A DNA stretch of 64,000 nt from Candidatus Woesearchaeota archaeon (GCA_019323515.1 JAHWHG010000007.1:148603-212602), one strand, 5' to 3'. Positions 28,912 through 37,224 are shown, numbered from the stretch's first letter. Numbers and translations are program-made. Notes: generated by a model not told the origin, from the sequence alone.

Positions 28912-28958
28912 ACACAATATGTTGTGGTTTTGACAAAAAAACACACAACAGGTTGTTA
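28912..28958 (+). promoter_or_regulatory. Tandem NrdR boxes, 31 bp apart
   Basis: ACACAATATGTTGTGG (28912-28927) and ACACAACAGGTTGTTA (28943-28958) match the acaCwAtATaTwGtgt consensus; they lie directly upstream of nrdR-nrdD and just downstream of the TATA-like ATTTAAAT at 28886-28893. Confidence 0.85.
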
Positions 28959-28968
28959 TCACTGAAAA

Positions 28969-29454
28969 ATGAAATGTCCTTACTGCTTATCAAATGAAAC
29001 CAAGGTTGTAGACAAAAGACCTACAAGTGACTTTGAAGTCACAAGAAGAAGAAGGGAATGTCTAAAGTGCGAGCGCCGTTTTACTACGTATGAAAGGATT
29101 GAGATGGCTGACCTTGTTGTTGTCAAAAAAGACAGCAGAAGAGAGGCTTTTGATAGGGACAAACTAAAGCAAGGCCTGACAAAAGCACTGCAAAAAAGAC
29201 CAATAAGTGCTGAACAGGTAGATAAAATAATCAATGAAATTGAGATGAAACTCAAAGGCAAGGAAAATCTAGAGGTTGAAAGCAGATATATTGGGAAGCT
29301 TATCATGAACAGGCTCAAAAGGATAGACCCTGTAGCCTATATAAGATTTGCTTCAGTGTATAAATCATTTGATGACCTAGACGCATTTGCTGAAGAAATA
29401 AAAAAGATAAAACAAACGAAAAAAAGTGGTGATAATGATGGAGATTCTAGTTAA
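28969..29454 (+). CDS. nrdR: Transcriptional repressor NrdR
   Basis: MKCPYC...RRRRECLKCERRFTTYE, ATP cone VVKKDSRREAFDRDKL, VAYIRFASVY. Confidence 0.97.
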   Translation: MKCPYCLSNETKVVDKRPTSDFEVTRRRRECLKCERRFTTYERIEMADLVVVKKDSRREAFDRDKLKQGLTKALQKRPISAEQVDKIINEIEMKLKGKENLEVESRYIGKLIMNRLKRIDPVAYIRFASVYKSFDDLDAFAEEIKKIKQTKKSGDNDGDSS

Positions 29455-31741
29455 AAAAGCAGATGAAAGAACTGAATCATTCTCAAAACAAAAACTGAGT
29501 TACGCTTTAGAAAGAACAGGGATTCCAAACAAACATATCTCTGAAGTAGTTGACAAGATTGCTAAACAGGCGTATAACCTTATTCCAACCTCTGAGATTA
29601 GGAAATGGGTCATTGAAGAACTTGATAAGATTGATGAGCAATACAGCTATGGATTCAAATATAAAAGAAAAAACGTCTGGGTCGTTGGAGGAGAACCTCC
29701 ATTCAACCATGTGTTTCAACCATTTATCAAGCAAAGAATTGTTGAATCACTTATTAAAGAGACAAATATGGAGGAAAAACTAGCAAGAGAAATCTCAGAC
29801 GAAGTGGAACATCTACTTATTGAGAATAAAGTTGAGCATATAACAGGGCCACTCATAAGGGAACTTGTAAATTATATCCTTACAAAAAGAAAACTCTATG
29901 ACTATAAGAGAGATTATTCGAGACTCGGCATGCCTGTCTATGATATACATAGGACAATCAACCAAAACTTACATGAGAATGCAAATTTAGGGTATCATGC
30001 TGAAGCAATACATAAACTGATTGCTGACAATGTATCTAAGAAATACGCACTCACAAAAATACTTCCTCCTGAACTTGCTTACACACACCTCAAAGGAGAA
30101 TTATACATTCATGACCTAAGCTATTTCTCTACAAGACCATTTTGCTTTGCATCTGACCTTAGATTCTTCTTCAAAAACGGGCTTAAAGTAGATGGCTTTG
30201 GCAACCAAACCTCAACTGCAGGCCCAGCAAAACGTGCAGATGTTGCTTTAAACCATGCTGCGAAGATTGTCGGAGCTGGCCAAACTAACTGTGCAGGTGG
30301 TCAAGGCCTTGACTTCTTTAATATATGGATGTCACCTTTTTTAAAAGGAAAATCATACAATGAGATGTATCAACTAGCACAGCAATTCATTTATGAAATG
30401 AATATGATGCTTGTAAGCAGAGGCGGTCAAGCAGTCTTTTCTTCAATATCATTAGAATTCGACCCTCCCAAATGGATTTCCGAATTACCAGCAGTGCTTC
30501 CTGGAGGAAAGGTTAGTGAAAAAGAAACATATGCAGATTACACTGAGGAAGCCCTGACATTCACAGAAGCACTAACTGATGTATTCCTAGGAGGAGACTA
30601 CAATGGAAAGATGTTTTCATGGCCAAAACCTGAATTCAAGGTTAGGAAACCTTTGCTAAAGGGCAAGCATGAAGAACTCTTCATGAAGGTGCATCAACTA
30701 GCTTCAAAATTTGGCAGCCCTTATTTCCTTAACCTAAACGCACCATACATGCCGGACATATGCCAAAGTCAATGTTGTAGATTTTTTCTCACGCCAACTG
30801 CTGACGAATGGATAGACATTGAAAGAGGTTCTACAAGATCAAGCTGCATACAGTACGTTTCATTGAACCTTCCAAGAGTTGCTTACGAAGCAAAAGATGA
30901 GACTGCTGCATTGGAACTTATTCAAAAAAGGATGGAGCAATCAAAAGAAATATTCAAGATTAAAAATGATATAATAAGGCAAAGACTTGATCAAAAGATT
31001 CTTCCTTTCCTTGCGCAGGATTGCTACGGAGAATACCTTTATCCAATTAATCACTGCTTACACAATTTTGGTTTTGTAGGATTAAACGAAATGGTAAAAT
31101 CATTAACTGGAGAAGAACTTCATGAAAGCGAAAGTGCATGGAAGTTCGGATTAAAAGTAATCAAAAATATGTCTGATTATTCTAAACTCCTTAACGAAAA
31201 CCCTGATGAGGGATACGGATTACGATACGGAGTTGTACAAACACCTGGAGAAAGTGCACCCCATAGGCTCGCAAAGATTGATATGCGTGATTTCAAAGAC
31301 AAGGCAGTTGTACAGGGCAATGTCAAAGATGGTTCTGTTTATTACATGAACTCGTCACATCCAAACTACTCAGCTCCAATCAATCTTTTCAAGAGATTAC
31401 AGATTGATGCATCATTCCACCCTTTGCTCGATGGCGGCGCAATATCACATCTATGGTTAGGAGAATCTAACCCTGATCCAAGTGCACTTCTCAAGTTGAC
31501 AAAGAAGATATGTGAAAAAACACTCACTGCATATTATGCCTACACAAAGGACATAAGTTATTGCATTAAATGCCATAAGACTATGGGAGGCATACAAGAT
31601 ACATGCCCTAACTGCGGTTCTAACGAAGTGGAATGCTACAGTAGAGTGACTGGCTACTATCAAAGGGTATCAGGCTGGAACAAAGGAAAGAAACAAGAAT
31701 TCCTTGATAGATATAGATACGGAAATAACATGTTAAAATAA
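29435..31741 (+). CDS. nrdD: Class III anaerobic ribonucleoside-triphosphate reductase, copy 1 (two ATP cones)
   Basis: ENAN, IHD, RPFC, GGQG, SRGGQ, QSQCCRF, SLNLPR, TPGES, Zn ribbon CIKC..CPNC, glycyl-radical loop SRVTGYY; SD GGTGAT before ATG 29435/29438. Confidence 0.95.
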   Translation: MMEILVKKADERTESFSKQKLSYALERTGIPNKHISEVVDKIAKQAYNLIPTSEIRKWVIEELDKIDEQYSYGFKYKRKNVWVVGGEPPFNHVFQPFIKQRIVESLIKETNMEEKLAREISDEVEHLLIENKVEHITGPLIRELVNYILTKRKLYDYKRDYSRLGMPVYDIHRTINQNLHENANLGYHAEAIHKLIADNVSKKYALTKILPPELAYTHLKGELYIHDLSYFSTRPFCFASDLRFFFKNGLKVDGFGNQTSTAGPAKRADVALNHAAKIVGAGQTNCAGGQGLDFFNIWMSPFLKGKSYNEMYQLAQQFIYEMNMMLVSRGGQAVFSSISLEFDPPKWISELPAVLPGGKVSEKETYADYTEEALTFTEALTDVFLGGDYNGKMFSWPKPEFKVRKPLLKGKHEELFMKVHQLASKFGSPYFLNLNAPYMPDICQSQCCRFFLTPTADEWIDIERGSTRSSCIQYVSLNLPRVAYEAKDETAALELIQKRMEQSKEIFKIKNDIIRQRLDQKILPFLAQDCYGEYLYPINHCLHNFGFVGLNEMVKSLTGEELHESESAWKFGLKVIKNMSDYSKLLNENPDEGYGLRYGVVQTPGESAPHRLAKIDMRDFKDKAVVQGNVKDGSVYYMNSSHPNYSAPINLFKRLQIDASFHPLLDGGAISHLWLGESNPDPSALLKLTKKICEKTLTAYYAYTKDISYCIKCHKTMGGIQDTCPNCGSNEVECYSRVTGYYQRVSGWNKGKKQEFLDRYRYGNNMLK

Positions 31742-31779
31742 GACGTTAAACAAACAATAAAAAGATACAAGGATAAAAG

Positions 31780-33819
31780 ATGGAGAAGAAGATAATTACT
31801 TCAAATGGAGAGACAGGTTCTTTATCCAAGGAAAAAATAAAACAAGCTTTACTTAAAGAGACTTCAATAACAAAAGAAAATGCTGAACAGATTGCAGAAA
31901 AAAGTTTTAAGGAATTAGAGGGTATAAACGGAATCCTCAAGACAAGTTTGATTAGAGAAATAGTTTGTATGAAACTAAGAGAGCAAGGGCTTGAAAAAGA
32001 ACATTCAGAGTTTGTACGTCTTGGCCTGCCAGTGCACGAGGTTAAGAAAATAATGTTTGAATATGACAAGAACAATGCAAACACAACATATAACCCTCAA
32101 ACAATCCAATTTAATTTAGCACAGCCTATTGCAAGACAATATGCACTATTCCACTTACTTCCAAAAAAGATAGCAGATAGCCATATAAATGGCGAGATTT
32201 ACATCCATGACTTCGACTTCTTTGCAACAAGACCGTTCTGCTTTTCACATGATATAAGGTTCTTCCTAAAGAACGGACTTAAGACAGACGGTTCAGGGAA
32301 CCACACAGCATCTTCAGGACCTGCTAAAAGTCTCTCAGTAGCCCTTAGACACGCAGCAAGGACAATGATAATAGCCTCAAACTACTTTTCAGGAGGCCAA
32401 GGTTTTGATAGCCTTAACCTTTACTTAGCTCCCTACGCGCGTGGACTTAGCAACCATGCTATTGAACACGCAGTTCAAGGCTTTATCTTCCAGCTAGCAA
32501 CATTAAACGTTGTCAAAGGCGGCCAACTTCCCTTTACATCAGCATCACTCGAACTCAACATGCCAGGTTACCTCAAAGACGTCCCAGTAGTGCTTCCTGG
32601 AGGTAAAGTCAGTGAAAATGAGAACTACGAAAATTATTTAGATGAAGCAAGAAGAATTGCAGACGTGTTCACAAAACTTCTTATGCGTGGAGACCACTTT
32701 GGTAGACCATTCCACTTCCCTAAACCCGAATATAAGATAAGAAAGGATACTTTAAAGGATAAAGAAGTAGAGCCTCTACTCTTAGATATTCATAAACTTG
32801 TAGCTAAGTTCGGAAGTCCATACTTCCTAAACATGGCAGCTCCTTATATGCCAGATGCTCTCCAAAGCCAATGCTGCCGCTACTTCCTTGCACCTGACCA
32901 GGATTTCTGGGAAGAGATAAAGGAAGGTACTGTTAGGAGCGGCAGTATCCAGACTGTTACATTAAACCTTCCAAATATAGCCTATAACGTAAAAGATGAA
33001 TCCGAGATTTACCCACTAATCCAGGAAAGGATTAACCTCATGAGGGGCATATTTGATATCAAAAGAGAATGCATCAAAAAGGTAATGGACTCAGGAGCTG
33101 CACCTTTCCTTACAATGGATTGTAATGGAAAACCTTACTTCAAGATTAACGAATCAACAAACTCTGTCGGGTTTATAGGATTAAACGAGATGGTGAAGTC
33201 ATTAATTGGAGAAGAACTTCACGAAAGCGACAATGGATGGAAGTTAGGCTTAAAGATAATCAAGTACATGTCAGATTTAGTTATGGAAATGCAGGAAAAA
33301 ACCGGACAACGATGGGGTATGGTGCAAACACCAGCAGAATCCGTAAGCTGGAAGTTTGCTGAACTTGATTCAAAGAACTACAAAGATAAAGCGATTGTAC
33401 AAGGGAATAAAGAAACTGGCGATATTTTCTATACAAATAGTAGTCAGCCAAGGTACTCAGCTGACATAGACCTTTTCAAAAGACTCAAGATTGATAGTTC
33501 ATTCCATCCACTTGTAAAAGGTGGAGTGATATCACATGTATTCCTCGGAGAAAAGAACCCTGACCCAGAAGCCCTATTAAATTTGACAAAAAAGATTTGC
33601 TCTAAAACTCTAACAGCCTATTATGCTTATACAAAAGATATCACTTACTGTAACAGTTGTAGTAATACGTTTGGTGGCATACACCAAAAATGTCCTAGCT
33701 GTGGAGAAGAAGACAAGATTGAATGCTTTTCAAGAATAACTGGCTATTATACAAATGTAAAAAGCTGGAATAAAGGTAAGTTCAAGGAATTCCTAGAAAG
33801 AAAAAGGTATGGTCTATGA
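31780..33819 (+). CDS. nrdD: Class III ribonucleotide reductase, copy 2
   Basis: One ATP cone; IHD, RPFC, GGQG, QSQCCRY, TPAES, CNSC..CPSC, SRITGYY. Confidence 0.93.
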   Translation: MEKKIITSNGETGSLSKEKIKQALLKETSITKENAEQIAEKSFKELEGINGILKTSLIREIVCMKLREQGLEKEHSEFVRLGLPVHEVKKIMFEYDKNNANTTYNPQTIQFNLAQPIARQYALFHLLPKKIADSHINGEIYIHDFDFFATRPFCFSHDIRFFLKNGLKTDGSGNHTASSGPAKSLSVALRHAARTMIIASNYFSGGQGFDSLNLYLAPYARGLSNHAIEHAVQGFIFQLATLNVVKGGQLPFTSASLELNMPGYLKDVPVVLPGGKVSENENYENYLDEARRIADVFTKLLMRGDHFGRPFHFPKPEYKIRKDTLKDKEVEPLLLDIHKLVAKFGSPYFLNMAAPYMPDALQSQCCRYFLAPDQDFWEEIKEGTVRSGSIQTVTLNLPNIAYNVKDESEIYPLIQERINLMRGIFDIKRECIKKVMDSGAAPFLTMDCNGKPYFKINESTNSVGFIGLNEMVKSLIGEELHESDNGWKLGLKIIKYMSDLVMEMQEKTGQRWGMVQTPAESVSWKFAELDSKNYKDKAIVQGNKETGDIFYTNSSQPRYSADIDLFKRLKIDSSFHPLVKGGVISHVFLGEKNPDPEALLNLTKKICSKTLTAYYAYTKDITYCNSCSNTFGGIHQKCPSCGEEDKIECFSRITGYYTNVKSWNKGKFKEFLERKRYGL

Positions 33820-34952
33820 AGATTGATGTCCCTTTTAAAGACCTGGAAGAAAGTAGCCCTGATAAGATAGTAAAGTCTCTTCTAAAAGAGACATCTATAG
33901 AAGAAGACAAAGCAAAGATTATTGCAGAACAAGCATTCCAGGAGTTAAAGAAACTAGAGAGTATAACACCTAATTTAGTAAGAGAAATTGTATGTACTCA
34001 ACTCTTGAAATCCGGCCTAAGGAAATCACACAAAGAATATTCAAGGTTAGGTATGCCAGTATATGACATTAAAAATACTATCTTGCAGTATGATAAAGAA
34101 AATGCAAATGTAAACTATAATCCGCAATTTATGCACAAACAATTTGGAGATTCAATCTCTGAACAGTACACCTTACTATACCTTCTGCCTGCATCAGCAA
34201 GCAGGGCACACCTTAATGGAGAGATATACATACATGATAGGGCGTTCTTCCCAACAAGACCTTTCTGTTTTTCGCACGATATGAGATTCTTTCTTAAAAA
34301 CGGGGTAAAACCAGACGGGATAGGCATTTATGCAGGAGTTTCTGGACCTGCAAAAAGTCTACAAGTTGCAATGCAGCATGCTGCAAGAGTCTTACTTAAT
34401 GCTCAGACATACTTTTCAGGTGGCCAAGGCTTCGACAGTCTTAATCTTTACCTTGCACCTTATGCAAGGGGACTTAATTATTACCAAGTTAAACAGGCAG
34501 TTGAAGCATTTGTATACACTTTAGACCAGATATTTATACGCGATGGTGAGACAGCATTCACATCAGCATCACTCGAACTTAACTGCCCAAGATACTTAAA
34601 AGACGTGCCGGTTGTCCTTCCAGGTGGAAGAGTAACTGAAAATGAGAATTATGAGAACTACATTGAAGAAGCAAGAACAATCGCAAGAGCTTTTACAGAA
34701 GTAATGATGAATGGTGATCATAATGGCAAACCGTTTCATTTCCCTAAACCCGAGTATAAGATAAGAAAGGATACTTTAAAGGATAAAGAAGTAGAACCTC
34801 TACTCCTGGATGTACACAAACTTGTAGCTAAGTTCGGAAGTCCATACTTCCTAAACATGGCAGCTCCTTATATGCCAGACGCTCTCCAAAGTCAATGCTG
34901 TCGCTATTTCCTTGCACCTGACCAAGACTTCTGGGAAGACATCAAAGAAGGA
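32716..34952 (+). repeat. ~210-bp near-identical direct repeat shared by nrdD2 (about 32716-32928) and nrdD3 (about 34740-34952)
   Basis: Exact runs of 41 bp (32731-32771 = 34755-34795) and 62 bp (32794-32855 = 34818-34879), counted by eye. Confidence 0.85.
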
Positions 34953-35858
34953 ACCGTAAGAAGTGGAAGTATACAAGTTATAACAATTAACCTACCAAAC
35001 ATAGCATATAATGCAAAAGACGAAAGCCAAGTCTTTGACATTATTGACCAGCGCCTTGACACCGCTGAAAAGATATTCAATGTGAAAAGAGATGTAATAA
35101 AAAAAATATTAGATAACAATGCAGCACCTTTCCTAACAATGGAATGTAACAAGAAACCATATTTTAAGATTAAATCATCAACCAATTCTGTAGGATTTAT
35201 AGGGCTTAATGAGATGGTTAAATCACTGACAGGAGAAGAACTTCACGAAAGCGACAGCGCTTGGAAGCTCGGACTGAAGATTATAAAAGAGATGGCTGAC
35301 AAGGTCAAAGAAAAGCAAGAAAAAACAGAACAAAGATGGGGCATGGTACAGACACCTGCTGAAGGTTGTTCATATAAGCTGGCGGAGATTGACACTAAAA
35401 GGTATAAAGACAAGGCGATCGTACAAGGAGATACTAAATCCGGCACAATATATTATACGAATTCATGCCAAGTTAATTATTCCGCAAATTTACCATTATT
35501 TAATAGGATAAAGATTGACAGCTCATTCCACCCTCTTGTTAAGGGTGGTGTAATTAACCACATATTCCTTGGGGAAAAGAATCCAGACCCAGAAGCTCTT
35601 CTAAACCTAACAAACAAGATATGCAAAAACACTCTTACAGCATACTTTGCATACACCAAAGACATAACCTCTTGTAATAAATGCAAACAAACTTTTGGCA
35701 ACATACTTGAAAAATGTCCAAGTTGCGGTGCAGTGGGTGATGATTTACAATGGTACTCGAGGGTAACAGGCTATTATACGCCAGTAAAATCATGGAACAA
35801 GGGCAAAGCTACTGAATTTATTAACAGGAAAAGATATAGTGTAGGTGATAGACAATGA
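33816..35858 (+). CDS. nrdD: Class III ribonucleotide reductase, copy 3
   Basis: Degenerate ATP cone; ENAN, IHD, RPFC, GGQG, QSQCCRY, TPAEG, CNKC..CPSC, SRVTGYY; ATGA overlap with copy 2. Confidence 0.93.
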   Translation: MKIDVPFKDLEESSPDKIVKSLLKETSIEEDKAKIIAEQAFQELKKLESITPNLVREIVCTQLLKSGLRKSHKEYSRLGMPVYDIKNTILQYDKENANVNYNPQFMHKQFGDSISEQYTLLYLLPASASRAHLNGEIYIHDRAFFPTRPFCFSHDMRFFLKNGVKPDGIGIYAGVSGPAKSLQVAMQHAARVLLNAQTYFSGGQGFDSLNLYLAPYARGLNYYQVKQAVEAFVYTLDQIFIRDGETAFTSASLELNCPRYLKDVPVVLPGGRVTENENYENYIEEARTIARAFTEVMMNGDHNGKPFHFPKPEYKIRKDTLKDKEVEPLLLDVHKLVAKFGSPYFLNMAAPYMPDALQSQCCRYFLAPDQDFWEDIKEGTVRSGSIQVITINLPNIAYNAKDESQVFDIIDQRLDTAEKIFNVKRDVIKKILDNNAAPFLTMECNKKPYFKIKSSTNSVGFIGLNEMVKSLTGEELHESDSAWKLGLKIIKEMADKVKEKQEKTEQRWGMVQTPAEGCSYKLAEIDTKRYKDKAIVQGDTKSGTIYYTNSCQVNYSANLPLFNRIKIDSSFHPLVKGGVINHIFLGEKNPDPEALLNLTNKICKNTLTAYFAYTKDITSCNKCKQTFGNILEKCPSCGAVGDDLQWYSRVTGYYTPVKSWNKGKATEFINRKRYSVGDRQ

Positions 35859-36118
35859 AAGAGATAAAAATTGATATATTTGTTAAAAAAAATGAAGAAA
35901 AAAGTAAAAATGCAAAAATGATTGTTGAGAAAGTAACCGCTGAAATGGAAAACATTAGAATTAATGTCTTGGACATTGAAGAGGAAGAGATTACTGCATT
36001 AACATACCATATTATTAAAAGCCCAAGCATCTGTATCAATGGTTTGACAAGGTTTCATGGCAACATTCCTAATGAAGAAGCATTAAGGTCTGAAATCCTT
36101 AAAGCTCAGTTGATGTAA
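35855..36118 (+). CDS. Thioredoxin-fold protein lacking CxxC
   Basis: IFVKKNEEKSKNAK aligns with VFTGKNCPKCPAAK of the next gene; cis-Pro segment KSPSICING; ATGA overlap with nrdD3. Confidence 0.75.
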   Translation: MKEIKIDIFVKKNEEKSKNAKMIVEKVTAEMENIRINVLDIEEEEITALTYHIIKSPSICINGLTRFHGNIPNEEALRSEILKAQLM

Positions 36119-36162: not shown

Positions 36163-36414
36163 ATGAAACTAACTGTATTTACTGGAAAAAACTGCCCAAA
36201 ATGTCCTGCAGCAAAAGAACTTTGCGAGGAGATTGCAAAAGAAAAAGGTATGGAATATGAGGTTAAAGATATTGAAGAAAACATGTTTGAAGCACTTCAG
36301 CTACAGATTGCATCTACACCTACGATTCTGCTAAATGATAATATCTTATTCAGGTCTGACCCACCAACAAAAGAAGAACTTATCCAAGCTATTGAAGAAA
36401 ACAGAGAGGGATGA
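36163..36414 (+). CDS. NrdH/glutaredoxin-like redoxin (CPKC)
   Basis: CPKC, IASTPTI; SD GGAGGT. Confidence 0.9.
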   Translation: MKLTVFTGKNCPKCPAAKELCEEIAKEKGMEYEVKDIEENMFEALQLQIASTPTILLNDNILFRSDPPTKEELIQAIEENREG

Positions 36415-36468: not shown

Positions 36469-37224
36469 ATGGAAGCATATATAGCAGGCACTGTCCCAAT
36501 GTCAACAGTTGACTGGCCTGGCAATATATCGCTAGTTATATTTTTTGCAGGCTGCGACTTCAAGTGCAGTTATTGCTATAACTCCAAGTTAGTTGAGTTT
36601 AAGCAAGAGTTCAAAAAGCCTATTAAAGAACTTAAAGAAGAGATTAAAAAAAGTTTGGGATTTATAGATGCAGTATTATTCTCAGGAGGAGAATGCTGCC
36701 TCCAACTTCAAGCATTGAAAGAATTGGCAAAATTCACAAAAAGTATGGAACTAAAAGTAGGAATAGAAACTAACGGAACAAGACCAGGAGTTGTAAGGCA
36801 CCTAATTAATGAAAGACTTATTGACTTTATTGGCCTTGACCTCAAGGCACCATTTGAACCAATCCTATTTGAAAATGTCACAAAATCAAAAACATTCTTC
36901 AAGACAACCGAAGAAGTTATAGACAACATAAAAGAGACTGTAGAGATTCTAAAGAAGAATACAAATAAGCTAGAGATTGAGATAAGGACAACTGTAGTAC
37001 CTACATTAGTACATACAAAAGAACATCTTGAATTAATAGGTAAAGAGATTCAAGGCTTAATCTGCACATGGTCACTGCAACAGTTCAGACCTGAAGAAGG
37101 AAAGATGATTGATAAATCTCTTGAAAAAGTTAAACCTCCAAAGCGAAGCGAACTAGAGTATTACAAAGAGCATCTTGAAAGAAAATTCCCATATCTTTCA
37201 ATCAAGGTAAAAGCAATTGATTAA
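36469..37224 (+). CDS. nrdG: Class III RNR activating radical SAM enzyme
   Basis: STVDWPG, FAGCDFKCSYCYN, FSGGE, ETNG, DLKAP, EIRTTVVP. Confidence 0.92.
   Translation: MEAYIAGTVPMSTVDWPGNISLVIFFAGCDFKCSYCYNSKLVEFKQEFKKPIKELKEEIKKSLGFIDAVLFSGGECCLQLQALKELAKFTKSMELKVGIETNGTRPGVVRHLINERLIDFIGLDLKAPFEPILFENVTKSKTFFKTTEEVIDNIKETVEILKKNTNKLEIEIRTTVVPTLVHTKEHLELIGKEIQGLICTWSLQQFRPEEGKMIDKSLEKVKPPKRSELEYYKEHLERKFPYLSIKVKAID

What the first reader, a model, noticed from the sequence alone, without database searches (positions are those of the whole stretch)
30180..34560. NrdD paralogs diverge in the presumed specificity-site helix and substrate loop
Seen: copy 1 QQFIYEMNMMLVSRGGQAVF (closest to the usual pattern), copy 2 QGFIFQLATLNVVKGGQLPF, copy 3 EAFVYTLDQIFIRDGETAF. 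Also AGQTNCAGGQ / ASNYFSGGQ / AQTYFSGGQ; TSTAGPAK / TASSGPAK / AGVSGPAK; HKLIAD / QFNLAQ / HKQFGD; NLPR versus NLPN. Established: in phage T4 NrdD the equivalent region forms the dimer-interface effector site and base-reading loop; my mapping onto it is by eye. Inference: each copy may be fixed on different bases or effectors, or may accept non-canonical nucleotides.
Basis: partly seen in the sequence, partly recalled or inferred. Interest (0 to 1): 0.72.

Follow-up and report, generated by a model that had tools for sequence, protein, structure and literature searches.

The report
Three NrdD copies, diverged specificity sites
A tiny DPANN archaeon carries three intact copies of the oxygen-sensitive enzyme that makes DNA building blocks in one operon. 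The two younger copies have changed most in the helix and loop that normally decide which building block is made, so they may be tuned differently, but this is not proven.

Summary
The quoted strings are all present. They belong to three tandem, intact class III ribonucleotide reductase genes: D1 29426-31741, D2 31780-33819, D3 33816-35858. These sit in an nrdR-nrdD1-D2-D3-trx'-trx-nrdG operon of a Woesearchaeota-like genome.

QQFIYEM...GGQAVF is helix alphaB plus loop 2, and TSTAGPAK lies in the effector-site beta-hairpin. HKLIAD, NLPR/NLPN and AGQTN... are not effector-site elements or fall on variable columns.

D1 is canonical. D2 and D3 are sister copies of a cone-less DPANN paralog. Their lineage-specific changes concentrate in alphaB and loop 2 (D3: 7/20 versus 32/467 columns, p=4e-4). 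They hit the effector-base contact (T4 Glu181 equivalent: E/Q/T) and, in D3 of this genome only, the universally conserved loop-2 Gln (now Glu).

All catalytic motifs are kept, and all three copies are under purifying selection. Most of the new residues also occur in characterised four-substrate NrdDs, so retuned allosteric specificity is plausible but unproven. Fixed single-base specificity or non-canonical substrates have no support. The triple is known from only two genomes.

The parts
28912..28956 (+). Two NrdR-box-like palindromes (ACACAATATGTTGTG and ACAACAGGTTGT), centres about 31.5 bp apart, just upstream of nrdR
   Evidence: Read directly from the sequence. The spacing matches the tandem NrdR boxes known in bacteria (my own knowledge of Rodionov & Gelfand 2005). 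Binding was not tested.
28969..29454 (+). nrdR (Zn-ribbon + ATP-cone repressor). It overlaps the start of nrdD1.
   Evidence: Pfam Zn_ribbon_NrdR 64 bits and ATP-cone 68 bits.
29426..31741 (+). NrdD copy D1 (771 aa from GTG; 767 aa from ATG at 29438). N-terminal ATP-cone, a second degenerate cone and the class III RNR core. Its specificity site and loop 2 are canonical for the family.
   Evidence: Pfam NRDD 496 bits and ATP-cone. Groups with cone-bearing DPANN NrdDs. 0/7 departures in alphaB + loop 2.
30368..30439 (+). D1 helix alphaB + loop 2 (YQLAQQFIYEMNMMLVSRGGQAVF). E325 is the T4 Glu181 equivalent. R332, Q335 and F338 are the T. maritima Arg221, Gln224 and Tyr227 equivalents.
   Evidence: Profile alignment to PDB chains, column table, papers PMC4493059 and PMC12662201.
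31780..33819 (+). NrdD copy D2 (679 aa). Only a degenerate cone remnant. All catalytic motifs are present.
   Evidence: Pfam NRDD 503 bits; ATP-cone 23 bits, below the cut-off. Motifs.
32464..32535 (+). D2 helix alphaB + loop 2 (EHAVQGFIFQLATLNVVKGGQLPF). Lineage-specific changes: Q230H, E238Q at the effector-base contact, Q241T and T250L.
   Evidence: Q at column 411 is found in 0 of 87 other family members.
32071..32124 (+). D2 NxN flap and the following helix (NNANTT...IQFNLAQ). E98N, H110Q and K111F hit columns that are 94%, 99% and 82% conserved.
   Evidence: Flap role from PMC11226230.
33816..35858 (+). NrdD copy D3 (680 aa). No recognisable cone. All catalytic motifs are present. Its start overlaps the D2 stop by 4 nt.
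   Evidence: Pfam NRDD 518 bits. AlphaFold2 pLDDT 91.4. Foldseek TM 0.73-0.81 to P. copri and T4 NrdD.
34308..34355 (+). D3 effector-site beta-hairpin (KPDGIGIYAGVSGPAK). Family H-T-A is Y-A-G in D3 of both genomes.
   Evidence: Hairpin role in PcNrdD.
34491..34559 (+). D3 helix alphaB + loop 2 (KQAVEAFVYTLDQIFIRDGETAF). Changes: Q230E, E235T (V in the sister genome), a one-residue deletion, G243D and Q245E. Q245E is codon GAG at 34548-34550 and occurs in this genome only.
   Evidence: Gln at column 422 is found in 87/87 family members and in all four solved NrdDs.
34761..34940 (+). Recent D2-to-D3 gene-conversion tract, reaching the thiyl-radical loop SQCCRY (34890-34907)
   Evidence: D2-D3 nucleotide identity is 90-98% here, against 47-78% over most of the gene. 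In this tract D3 is closer to D2 than to its own ortholog, which is 67-78% identical.
35855..36118 (+). Thioredoxin-fold ORF without a CxxC motif; it overlaps the D3 stop
   Evidence: Pfam Thioredoxin_3 27.7 bits. The sequence has no CxxC.
36163..36414 (+). NrdH/thioredoxin-like redoxin with a CPKC motif, the likely reductant
   Evidence: Pfam Thioredoxin_3 51.8 bits; sequence.
36469..37224 (+). NrdG-type radical-SAM activase, the only one in the operon
   Evidence: Pfam Radical_SAM and Fer4_12.

Best explanation
The operon encodes three catalytically competent class III ribonucleotide reductases. They share one activase, one redoxin system and, probably, one NrdR-controlled promoter.

D1 is the ancestral-type enzyme. 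It has an ATP-cone for ATP/dATP on/off control and a canonical specificity site.

D2 and D3 descend from the cone-less paralog that accompanies the cone-bearing NrdD in many DPANN archaea. After that paralog duplicated, both copies changed mainly in the N-terminal half: the NxN flap region, the effector-site hairpin, helix alphaB and loop 2. Their catalytic C-terminal halves stayed alike and still exchange sequence by gene conversion.

I infer that D2 and D3 respond differently to the dNTP/ATP specificity effectors, or have different substrate preferences. The three isoenzymes together would then set the dNTP balance, rather than one enzyme doing it alone.

Shown: the gene anatomy, the mapping of the diverged residues, their statistical concentration and purifying selection. 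Inferred: that the changes alter effector or substrate preference.
For: **All three look active.** Each keeps the NxN flap, the (Y)IHD triphosphate motif, the bottom-face Cys, the SQCCR thiyl loop, the NLP Asn, four Zn-ribbon Cys and the RxTGYY glycyl motif.

**All three are kept by selection.** Orthologs in the only other genome with the triple (G002) differ at saturated synonymous sites (pS 0.86-0.91) but have dN of only 0.10-0.15.

**The diverged residues sit in the specificity apparatus.**
- Column 411 is T4 Glu181, S. thermophilus Glu293 and P. copri Asn298, the effector-base contact. It reads E in D1, Q in D2 and T/V in D3, against E in 80/87 relatives. No relative has Q, T or V there.
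- Column 414 (T. maritima Gln218) reads M/T/Q.
- D3's loop 2 is one residue shorter and has G243D. In this genome it also has Q245E, at a Gln that is invariant in 87/87 relatives and in all four solved structures.

**The changes are concentrated.** D3 has 7/20 versus 32/467 (p=4e-4). D2 has 5/20 versus 49/467 (p=0.059). D1 has none.

**The two halves of the protein behave differently.** In the N-half tree the D2 and D3 stems are 0.44 and 0.23, and the two are not sisters. In the C-half tree they are sisters with stems of 0.13 and 0.10. A 180-nt conversion tract lies in the C-half.

**Differential expression is an unlikely reason for three copies.** The genes are co-oriented with 38-nt and -4-nt junctions behind NrdR boxes.
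Against: - No biochemistry exists for any member of this archaeal NrdD family.
- D1 and D2 keep the substrate-contacting (R/K)GGQxxF loop.
- The residue pairs at columns 411/414 in D2 (Q/T) and D3 (T/Q) resemble those of P. copri (N/T) and T. maritima (S/Q). D3's loop length equals that of T4 and S. thermophilus. All of those enzymes reduce four substrates under the usual rules, so the changes could be functionally neutral re-solutions.
- The most striking change, Q245E, is in one metagenome-assembled genome only.
- Only two genomes carry the triple, so 'fixed' rests on n=2.
Confidence: 0.45

Rival explanations
1. Heteromeric enzyme. The paralogs assemble into mixed dimers (D2-D3, or D1 with D2 or D3). 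The specificity site and the two loops 2 sit at the dimer interface, and NrdD works with one active and one inactive monomer. Divergence there could therefore reflect adaptation to a fixed asymmetric partner rather than separate specificities.
For: - The D2/D3 and D3/trx' junctions overlap by 4 nt (ATGA), as do cone-bearing/cone-less pairs in other DPANN contigs (L020 and L024). This suggests translational coupling and matched amounts.
- In PcNrdD the two loops 2 touch each other, and only one monomer is active at a time.
- The effector site is built from helix alphaA of one chain and alphaB of the other.
- D3's loop 2 gains acidic residues (D243, E245), while the D1 and D2 loops carry R or K.
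- Earlier agents of this scan raised the same idea for bacterial NrdD pairs. That is a lead, not evidence.
Against: - There is no direct evidence. All described NrdDs are homodimers.
- Both D2 and D3 keep every catalytic residue, so neither looks like a purely regulatory partner.
- The changes in D2 and D3 are not complementary (alphaA of one, alphaB of the other). Both changed alphaB.
- X-type NrdDs also occur without an adjacent partner of this family (G053, L026).
- In L021 the two paralogs are separated by dcd and thyA.
- No multimer prediction could be run.
Confidence: 0.17
2. Functional redundancy or drift. The three enzymes do the same job. Loop 2 and the end of alphaB tolerate many solutions, as the diversity among characterised NrdDs shows, and the differences are neutral or only mildly quantitative. 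The extra copies are kept for dosage, or are in transit between gain and loss.
For: - The substituted states occur in functional NrdDs of other subclasses.
- Column 414 is variable across the family (Q61 M19 T6).
- Shortened RxGQ loops arose in two other X-type lineages without an extra copy (P0022, P0023).
- RNR gene sets turn over quickly. The congener G001 carries a different NrdD type.
- Lundin et al. 2010 (PMC3019208) argue that redundancy is the null hypothesis for same-class RNR paralogs.
Against: - A 1.1-Mb genome keeps all three intact across saturated synonymous divergence, with dN of 0.10-0.15.
- The changes hit columns that are 92-100% conserved in 87 relatives, and they cluster (p=4e-4 for D3).
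- The N-half stems are 2-3 times longer than the C-half stems only in D2 and D3, although the N-half is the slower half in the other sequences.
- Gene conversion homogenises the C-half but has not erased the N-half differences.
Confidence: 0.3
3. One copy, most likely D3, has left ordinary ribonucleotide reduction and acts on a non-canonical or modified nucleotide.
For: In this genome only, D3's loop-2 Gln-to-Glu replaces a residue that contacts the substrate base in T. maritima and P. copri NrdD.
Against: - The triphosphate motif, ribose-side catalytic residues, flap and stacking Phe are unchanged.
- The sister genome's D3 keeps Gln.
- The operon has no modification or salvage genes.
Confidence: 0.03

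Closest known systems
Thiol-dependent class III RNRs: Neisseria bacilliformis / Thermotoga maritima NrdD ('NrdD2') and the Methanosarcina barkeri NrdD with an NrdH-like redoxin ('NrdD3'). PDB 4COI/4COJ/4U3E; Wei et al. 2014 and 2015 are cited from my own knowledge because those papers are not held.
   Same: - Same fold (TM 0.64-0.74).
- YxHD triphosphate motif.
- Bottom-face Cys plus the S(Q)CCR double-Cys thiyl loop.
- Zn ribbon and glycyl motif.
- A small redoxin gene next to nrdD and nrdG.
- The loop-2 R..Q..(Y/F) spacing is the same as in T. maritima (Arg221, Gln224, Tyr227).
   Different: - About 20% identity.
- Three co-operonic paralogs instead of one gene.
- The alphaA effector-pocket Gln (T. 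maritima Gln161) is Lys or Arg in this whole archaeal family.
- There are two thioredoxin-fold genes, and one lacks CxxC.
- The reductant was not tested.
Formate-dependent, structurally characterised NrdDs with defined specificity sites: phage T4 (1H78-1HK8), Prevotella copri (8P23 and related entries; PMC11226230) and Streptococcus thermophilus (9D3X; PMC12662201)
   Same: - Same architecture: NxN flap, effector-site hairpin, helices alphaA and alphaB at the dimer interface, loop 2, glycyl-radical domain.
- D1 keeps the T4 Glu181 / S. thermophilus Glu293 equivalent, the loop-2 Gln (T4 Gln191) and the stacking aromatic (T4 Phe194).
- D3's loop 2 has the same length as in T4 and S. thermophilus.
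   Different: - Those enzymes have a Met-Gly-Cys thiyl loop and use formate; these have Gln-Cys-Cys.
- D2 and D3 lack a working ATP-cone.
- D2 has Gln and D3 has Thr or Val at the Glu181 position.
- D3 of this genome has Glu instead of the loop-2 Gln.
Tandem cone-bearing plus cone-less NrdD pairs of other DPANN archaea (contigs L020, L021, L024; homologs annotated only as 'anaerobic ribonucleoside-triphosphate reductase')
   Same: - Same two protein clades.
- Same order: cone-NrdD, cone-less NrdD, Thioredoxin_3, radical-SAM activase.
- Often 4-nt gene overlaps.
   Different: - Those loci have two copies, not three.
- Their cone-less copy keeps the family-consensus E...Q and (K/R)GGQTPF.
- The second duplication and the remodelled specificity site are seen only in this genome and G002.
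- I found no paper describing these pairs.

Membership tests
Class III ribonucleotide reductase catalytic subunit NrdD (PF13597) | Full-length match to the NRDD profile and the glycyl-radical-enzyme barrel fold | tested here: met
   496, 503 and 518 bits over profile positions 1-562 for D1, D2 and D3. D3 model has pLDDT 91.4, and its best PDB matches are all NrdD with TM up to 0.81.
Class III ribonucleotide reductase catalytic subunit NrdD (PF13597) | C-terminal glycyl-radical motif (RxxGY) preceded by a four-Cys zinc ribbon | tested here: met
   RVTGYY / RITGYY / RVTGYY, and CxxC...CxxC in all three. These align to T4 Gly580 and T. maritima Gly621.
Class III ribonucleotide reductase catalytic subunit NrdD (PF13597) | Thiyl-radical Cys on the finger loop, bottom-face Cys on strand A, and the triphosphate-binding H/YxHD motif | tested here: met
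   SQCCR(F/Y), FCF(A/S)(S/H)D and YIHD in all three. FCF aligns to T. maritima Cys125, and YIHD to Tyr112-His114-Asp115.
Class III ribonucleotide reductase catalytic subunit NrdD (PF13597) | A dedicated radical-SAM activase (NrdG) nearby | tested here: met
   One Radical_SAM + Fer4_12 gene at 36469-37224. A single activase serves three NrdDs.
Thiol (thioredoxin/NrdH)-dependent NrdD subtypes (NrdD2/NrdD3) | Second Cys next to the thiyl Cys in place of the Met of formate-type enzymes, plus a redoxin gene in the operon | tested here: met
   QCC aligns with the MGC of T4, S. thermophilus and P. copri. A CPKC Thioredoxin_3 gene lies at 36163-36414. The subtype definitions are from my own knowledge of Wei et al. 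2014.
Thiol (thioredoxin/NrdH)-dependent NrdD subtypes (NrdD2/NrdD3) | Activity with thioredoxin or NrdH instead of formate | not testable with these tools
   This needs an enzyme assay.
NrdD with a canonical allosteric specificity site (as in T4 and S. thermophilus) | AlphaA Gln contacting the effector base (T4 Gln114, S. thermophilus Gln225, T. maritima Gln161) | tested here: not met
   Lys in D1, Arg in D2 and D3. The whole archaeal family reads K61 R20 E5. This is a family trait, not a difference between the paralogs.
NrdD with a canonical allosteric specificity site (as in T4 and S. thermophilus) | AlphaB carboxylate or amide contacting the effector base (T4 Glu181, S. thermophilus Glu293, P. 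copri Asn298) | tested here: inconclusive
   D1 has Glu (met). D2 has Gln (an amide, like P. copri Asn). D3 has Thr here and Val in G002 (not met).
NrdD with a canonical allosteric specificity site (as in T4 and S. thermophilus) | Loop-2 Gln that contacts the substrate base, and the stacking aromatic (T4 Gln191/Phe194, T. maritima Gln224/Tyr227, P. copri Gln309) | tested here: inconclusive
   Phe is present in all three. Gln is present in D1, in D2 and in G002's D3, but is Glu (GAG, 34548-34550) in this genome's D3.
ATP-cone activity-regulated RNR | N-terminal ATP-cone above the Pfam threshold | tested here: inconclusive
   D1 scores 50.7 bits (met). D2 scores 23.2 bits, below the 25.8 cut-off. 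D3 has no hit.

The most novel reading that the evidence does not exclude
Division of labour in dNTP supply. Normally one RNR is switched between four substrates by its specificity site. This lineage would instead use three co-expressed NrdD isoenzymes, or mixed dimers of them, whose remodelled effector pockets and loops 2 give each a different, partly hard-wired substrate or effector preference. The dNTP balance would then be set by the mix of enzymes. That would be the first case of RNR substrate specificity partitioned among paralogs.
Probability: 0.15. Interest if true: 0.8.

Novelty: new variant of a known kind. Interest (0 to 1): 0.5.

Why it matters
Every RNR studied so far balances the four dNTPs through one allosteric specificity site. 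How that site works in class III enzymes is still called unknown (PMC12662201).

Here a natural set of three closely related, co-expressed NrdDs differs mainly at the effector-base contact, the effector hairpin and loop 2, on an otherwise conserved scaffold. That is a ready-made mutational series for testing how class III specificity is read out.

If the copies really differ in specificity, or form mixed dimers, this would be a new way of organising dNTP supply. It would also help explain why genome-reduced DPANN and other small-genome lineages keep several NrdD genes.

If they turn out to be equivalent, the result shows how much sequence freedom the specificity site tolerates.

Tried and rejected
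1. Site-wise or regional dN/dS was not possible. Synonymous sites are saturated between the only two genomes (pS 0.86-0.91) and between the paralogs.
2. 3D distances from the diverged residues to bound effector or substrate could not be measured. Model coordinates are not exposed to the Python box, so the mapping rests on profile alignments to solved chains plus the model's secondary structure.
4. I searched for more triple loci. The 5.8-billion-protein search found no D2 or D3 orthologs beyond G002's own proteins (P0002, P0005 and P0031 are 100% identical to G002's). The order-wide genome search scores at most two candidates per genome, so it cannot count triples.
5. I asked whether the other X-type NrdDs with a shortened loop 2 (P0022, P0023) also sit beside an extra X-type copy, which would have been an independent replicate. 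They do not. P0022 has only the usual cone-type partner, and P0023's upstream ORF is a pyruvate phosphate dikinase.
6. I looked for complementary decay of alphaA in one paralog and alphaB in the other, as a heterodimer signature. It is not seen; both changed alphaB.
7. Two residue numbers quoted in PMC11226230 (Glu290, Phe412) do not match the deposited chain at the +4 offset that fits Asn114, Asn298, Arg305, Gln309 and Cys416. I did not use them.
8. Wei et al. 2014 (PMC4246965) is not held.


Full report
**What is there.**
The finding lies in a + strand operon:
- nrdR, 28969-29454
- three class III RNR catalytic genes: D1 29426-31741 (771 aa), D2 31780-33819 (679 aa) and D3 33816-35858 (680 aa)
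- a thioredoxin-fold ORF without CxxC, 35855-36118
- a CPKC redoxin, 36163-36414
- one NrdG-type activase, 36469-37224

The junctions are tight: nrdR overlaps D1, the D1-D2 gap is 38 nt, and D2/D3 and D3/trx' overlap by 4 nt. Two NrdR-box-like palindromes with centres 31.5 bp apart precede nrdR.

The genome is 1.12 Mb in 20 contigs and 76% complete. It has no further NrdD, but it does carry a class I/II-type RNR gene on another contig. Homolog names place it among Woesearchaeota/Nanoarchaeota, i.e. DPANN.

**The observation.**
D1 is 48-49% identical to D2 and D3, and D2 is about 68% identical to D3.

All three copies keep the features needed for catalysis:
- the NxN flap
- the YIHD triphosphate motif
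- the bottom-face Cys
- the SQCCR thiyl loop
- the NLP Asn
- four Zn-ribbon Cys
- the RxTGYY glycyl motif

**Mapping onto solved structures.**
I aligned a 53-sequence family profile to the PDB chains and checked the numbering against residues named in three papers. The P. copri chain index equals author numbering plus 4. The T. maritima and T4 indices equal author numbering.

| Element | Position in solved NrdDs | D1 / D2 / D3 |
|---|---|---|
| NxN flap | P. copri Asn114-Ala115-Asn116 | ENAN / NNAN / ENAN |
| Effector-site beta-hairpin | P. copri peptide 178-204, hairpin 185-192 | contains TSTAGPAK / TASSGPAK / AGVSGPAK |
| AlphaA effector-base contact | T4 Gln114 = S. thermophilus Gln225 = T. 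maritima Gln161 | K / R / R (K or R in the whole family) |
| AlphaB, Mg2+ neighbour (column 406) | T. maritima Gln210 | Q / Q / E |
| AlphaB, effector-base contact (column 411) | T4 Glu181 = S. thermophilus Glu293 = P. copri Asn298 | E / Q / T |
| AlphaB, second pocket residue (column 414) | T. maritima Gln218 | M / T / Q |
| Loop 2 | T. maritima Arg221, Gln224, Tyr227; T4 Gln191, Phe194; P. copri Gln309 | R,Q,F / K,Q,F / R,E,F |

These assignments rest. An AlphaFold2 model of D3 (pLDDT 91.4) puts alphaA at 182-197, alphaB at 222-238, loop 2 at 239-248 and strand C at 249-254. Its best structural matches are NrdDs, with TM up to 0.81 against T4.

The other three strings do not fit that label:
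- HKLIAD is the helix after the substrate flap.
- The last residue of NLPR/NLPN is a free column (R44 N22 Q18).
- AGQTN... versus ..YFS.. is an old difference between the cone-bearing and cone-less clades.

**Evolutionary frame.**
In a tree of 117 homologs, D1 sits among cone-bearing DPANN NrdDs. D2 and D3 sit together inside a cone-less clade 'X' of 27 sequences, whose sister is a second cone-less clade 'Y'.

Cone-bearing plus cone-less pairs, followed by a Thioredoxin_3 gene and an activase, recur in other DPANN contigs. Some also carry dCMP deaminase, or dcd and thyA.

The triple is found only here and in G002, a genome of the same family. G002's three proteins are the database entries P0031, P0005 and P0002. 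X-type genes occur in about 9 of 401 sampled genomes of the order. I found no paper on NrdD pairs or triples in DPANN.

**Is the divergence special?**
- *Against 87 relatives.* D1 has no departure from strongly conserved columns in alphaB or loop 2. D2 has Q230H and E238Q, plus E98N and H110Q around the flap. D3 has Q230E, E235T (V in G002), G243D, a one-residue loop deletion, hairpin HTA to YAG, and Q245E in this genome only.
- *Enrichment in alphaB + loop 2.* D3 shows 3/7 versus 8/142 (p=0.009), and D2 shows 2/7 versus 13/142 (p=0.15). With clade X as outgroup, D3 shows 7/20 versus 32/467 (p=4e-4) and D2 shows 5/20 versus 49/467 (p=0.059).
- *Trees by region.* In the N-terminal half, from the flap to just past loop 2 (alignment columns 262-470), the D2 and D3 stems are 0.44 and 0.23 and the two are not sisters. 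In the C-terminal half they are sisters (support 92) with stems of 0.13 and 0.10.
- *Gene conversion.* A tract of about 180 nt (34761-34940, reaching the thiyl loop) is 90-98% identical between D2 and D3 of this genome. The same tract of D3 is only 67-78% identical to its ortholog. The catalytic half is therefore being homogenised, while the regulatory half stays distinct.
- *Selection.* Orthologs are saturated at synonymous sites but have dN of 0.10-0.15, so all three copies are under purifying selection.

**What tempers the interpretation.**
- The substituted states are mostly known from working enzymes. P. copri has N/T at columns 411/414, like D2's Q/T. T. maritima has S/Q, like D3's T/Q. 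T4, S. thermophilus and the other NrdD types of this archaeal order have a loop 2 of D3's length.
- D1 and D2 keep the (R/K)GGQxxF loop.
- Column 414 varies across the family.
- The one truly unprecedented change, Gln245 to Glu at a Gln invariant in 87/87 relatives and in all four structures, is a single G-for-C difference found in one metagenome-assembled genome. It could not be checked against reads.
- Shortened RxGQ loops also arose in two X-type lineages that show no extra copy.
- Lundin et al. (PMC3019208) argue that redundancy is the null hypothesis for same-class RNR paralogs.

**Verdict.**

The best-supported reading is three active isoenzymes, of which the two younger, cone-less ones have retuned effector read-out and loop 2 (about 0.45). 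The rivals are plain redundancy or drift (about 0.3), mixed dimers (about 0.17) and a non-canonical substrate (about 0.03).

This is a new variant of a known enzyme system, of moderate interest. It would be high interest if assays show that substrate specificity is divided among the paralogs.

Noticed in passing
window 28912-28956: Two NrdR-box-like palindromes (ACACAATATGTTGTG; ACAACAGGTTGT), centres about 31.5 bp apart, lie directly upstream of nrdR. This suggests an autoregulated, bacterial-type NrdR operator in an archaeon.
   Followed up: partly
window 35855-36118: A thioredoxin-fold ORF (Thioredoxin_3, 27.7 bits) has no CxxC. It overlaps the D3 stop and sits next to a CPKC redoxin at 36163-36414. 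It may be a redox-inactive adaptor.
   Followed up: no
window 34761-34940 (D3) and about 32737-32916 (D2): A recent gene-conversion tract. D2 and D3 are 90-98% identical in DNA here, while D3 is only 67-78% identical to its own ortholog in G002.
   Followed up: yes
window 30104-30115, 32200-32211, 34227-34238: All three paralogs, and their G002 orthologs, read YIHD where 98% of the family reads HIHD. This is the gamma-phosphate-binding motif. It looks like a parallel change in the D1 and D2/D3 lineages, or an old conversion.
   Followed up: partly
D2 aa 556 and D3 aa 552 (YTNSSQ / YTNSCQ; window about 33445 and 35469): The His of the YYTNSxH motif is His in 99% of the family and also in T4, P. 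copri and S. thermophilus. It is Gln in both D2 and D3. Its role is unknown.
   Followed up: no
G000 contig C19:26304-27542 (loci L022/L023): The same 1.1-Mb genome also encodes a class I/II-type RNR large subunit (PF02867, 325 bits). That makes four RNR catalytic genes in a reduced genome.
   Followed up: no
relatives G001, G007, G010, G012, G018, G025, G035: Many Woesearchaeal relatives carry a different NrdD type. Its last 30-45 profile positions, which include the glycyl-radical region, are a separate short ORF just downstream of the large gene. This looks like a split NrdD.
   Followed up: no
loci L020 (5680-11571) and L021 (2287-10242): Other DPANN contigs carry the cone-bearing plus cone-less NrdD pair together with dCMP deaminase, or with dCTP deaminase/dUTPase and thymidylate synthase. 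These are compact dNTP-supply operons.
   Followed up: partly
G001 versus G002 (same genus): One congener has the triple of archaeal-type NrdDs and the other has only the split, bacterial-like type. RNR gene sets seem to be replaced between very close relatives.
   Followed up: no
window 29426 / 29438: The start of D1 is ambiguous: GTG at 29426 (771 aa) or ATG at 29438 (767 aa, the form in the protein database). Either way it overlaps the end of nrdR.
   Followed up: no
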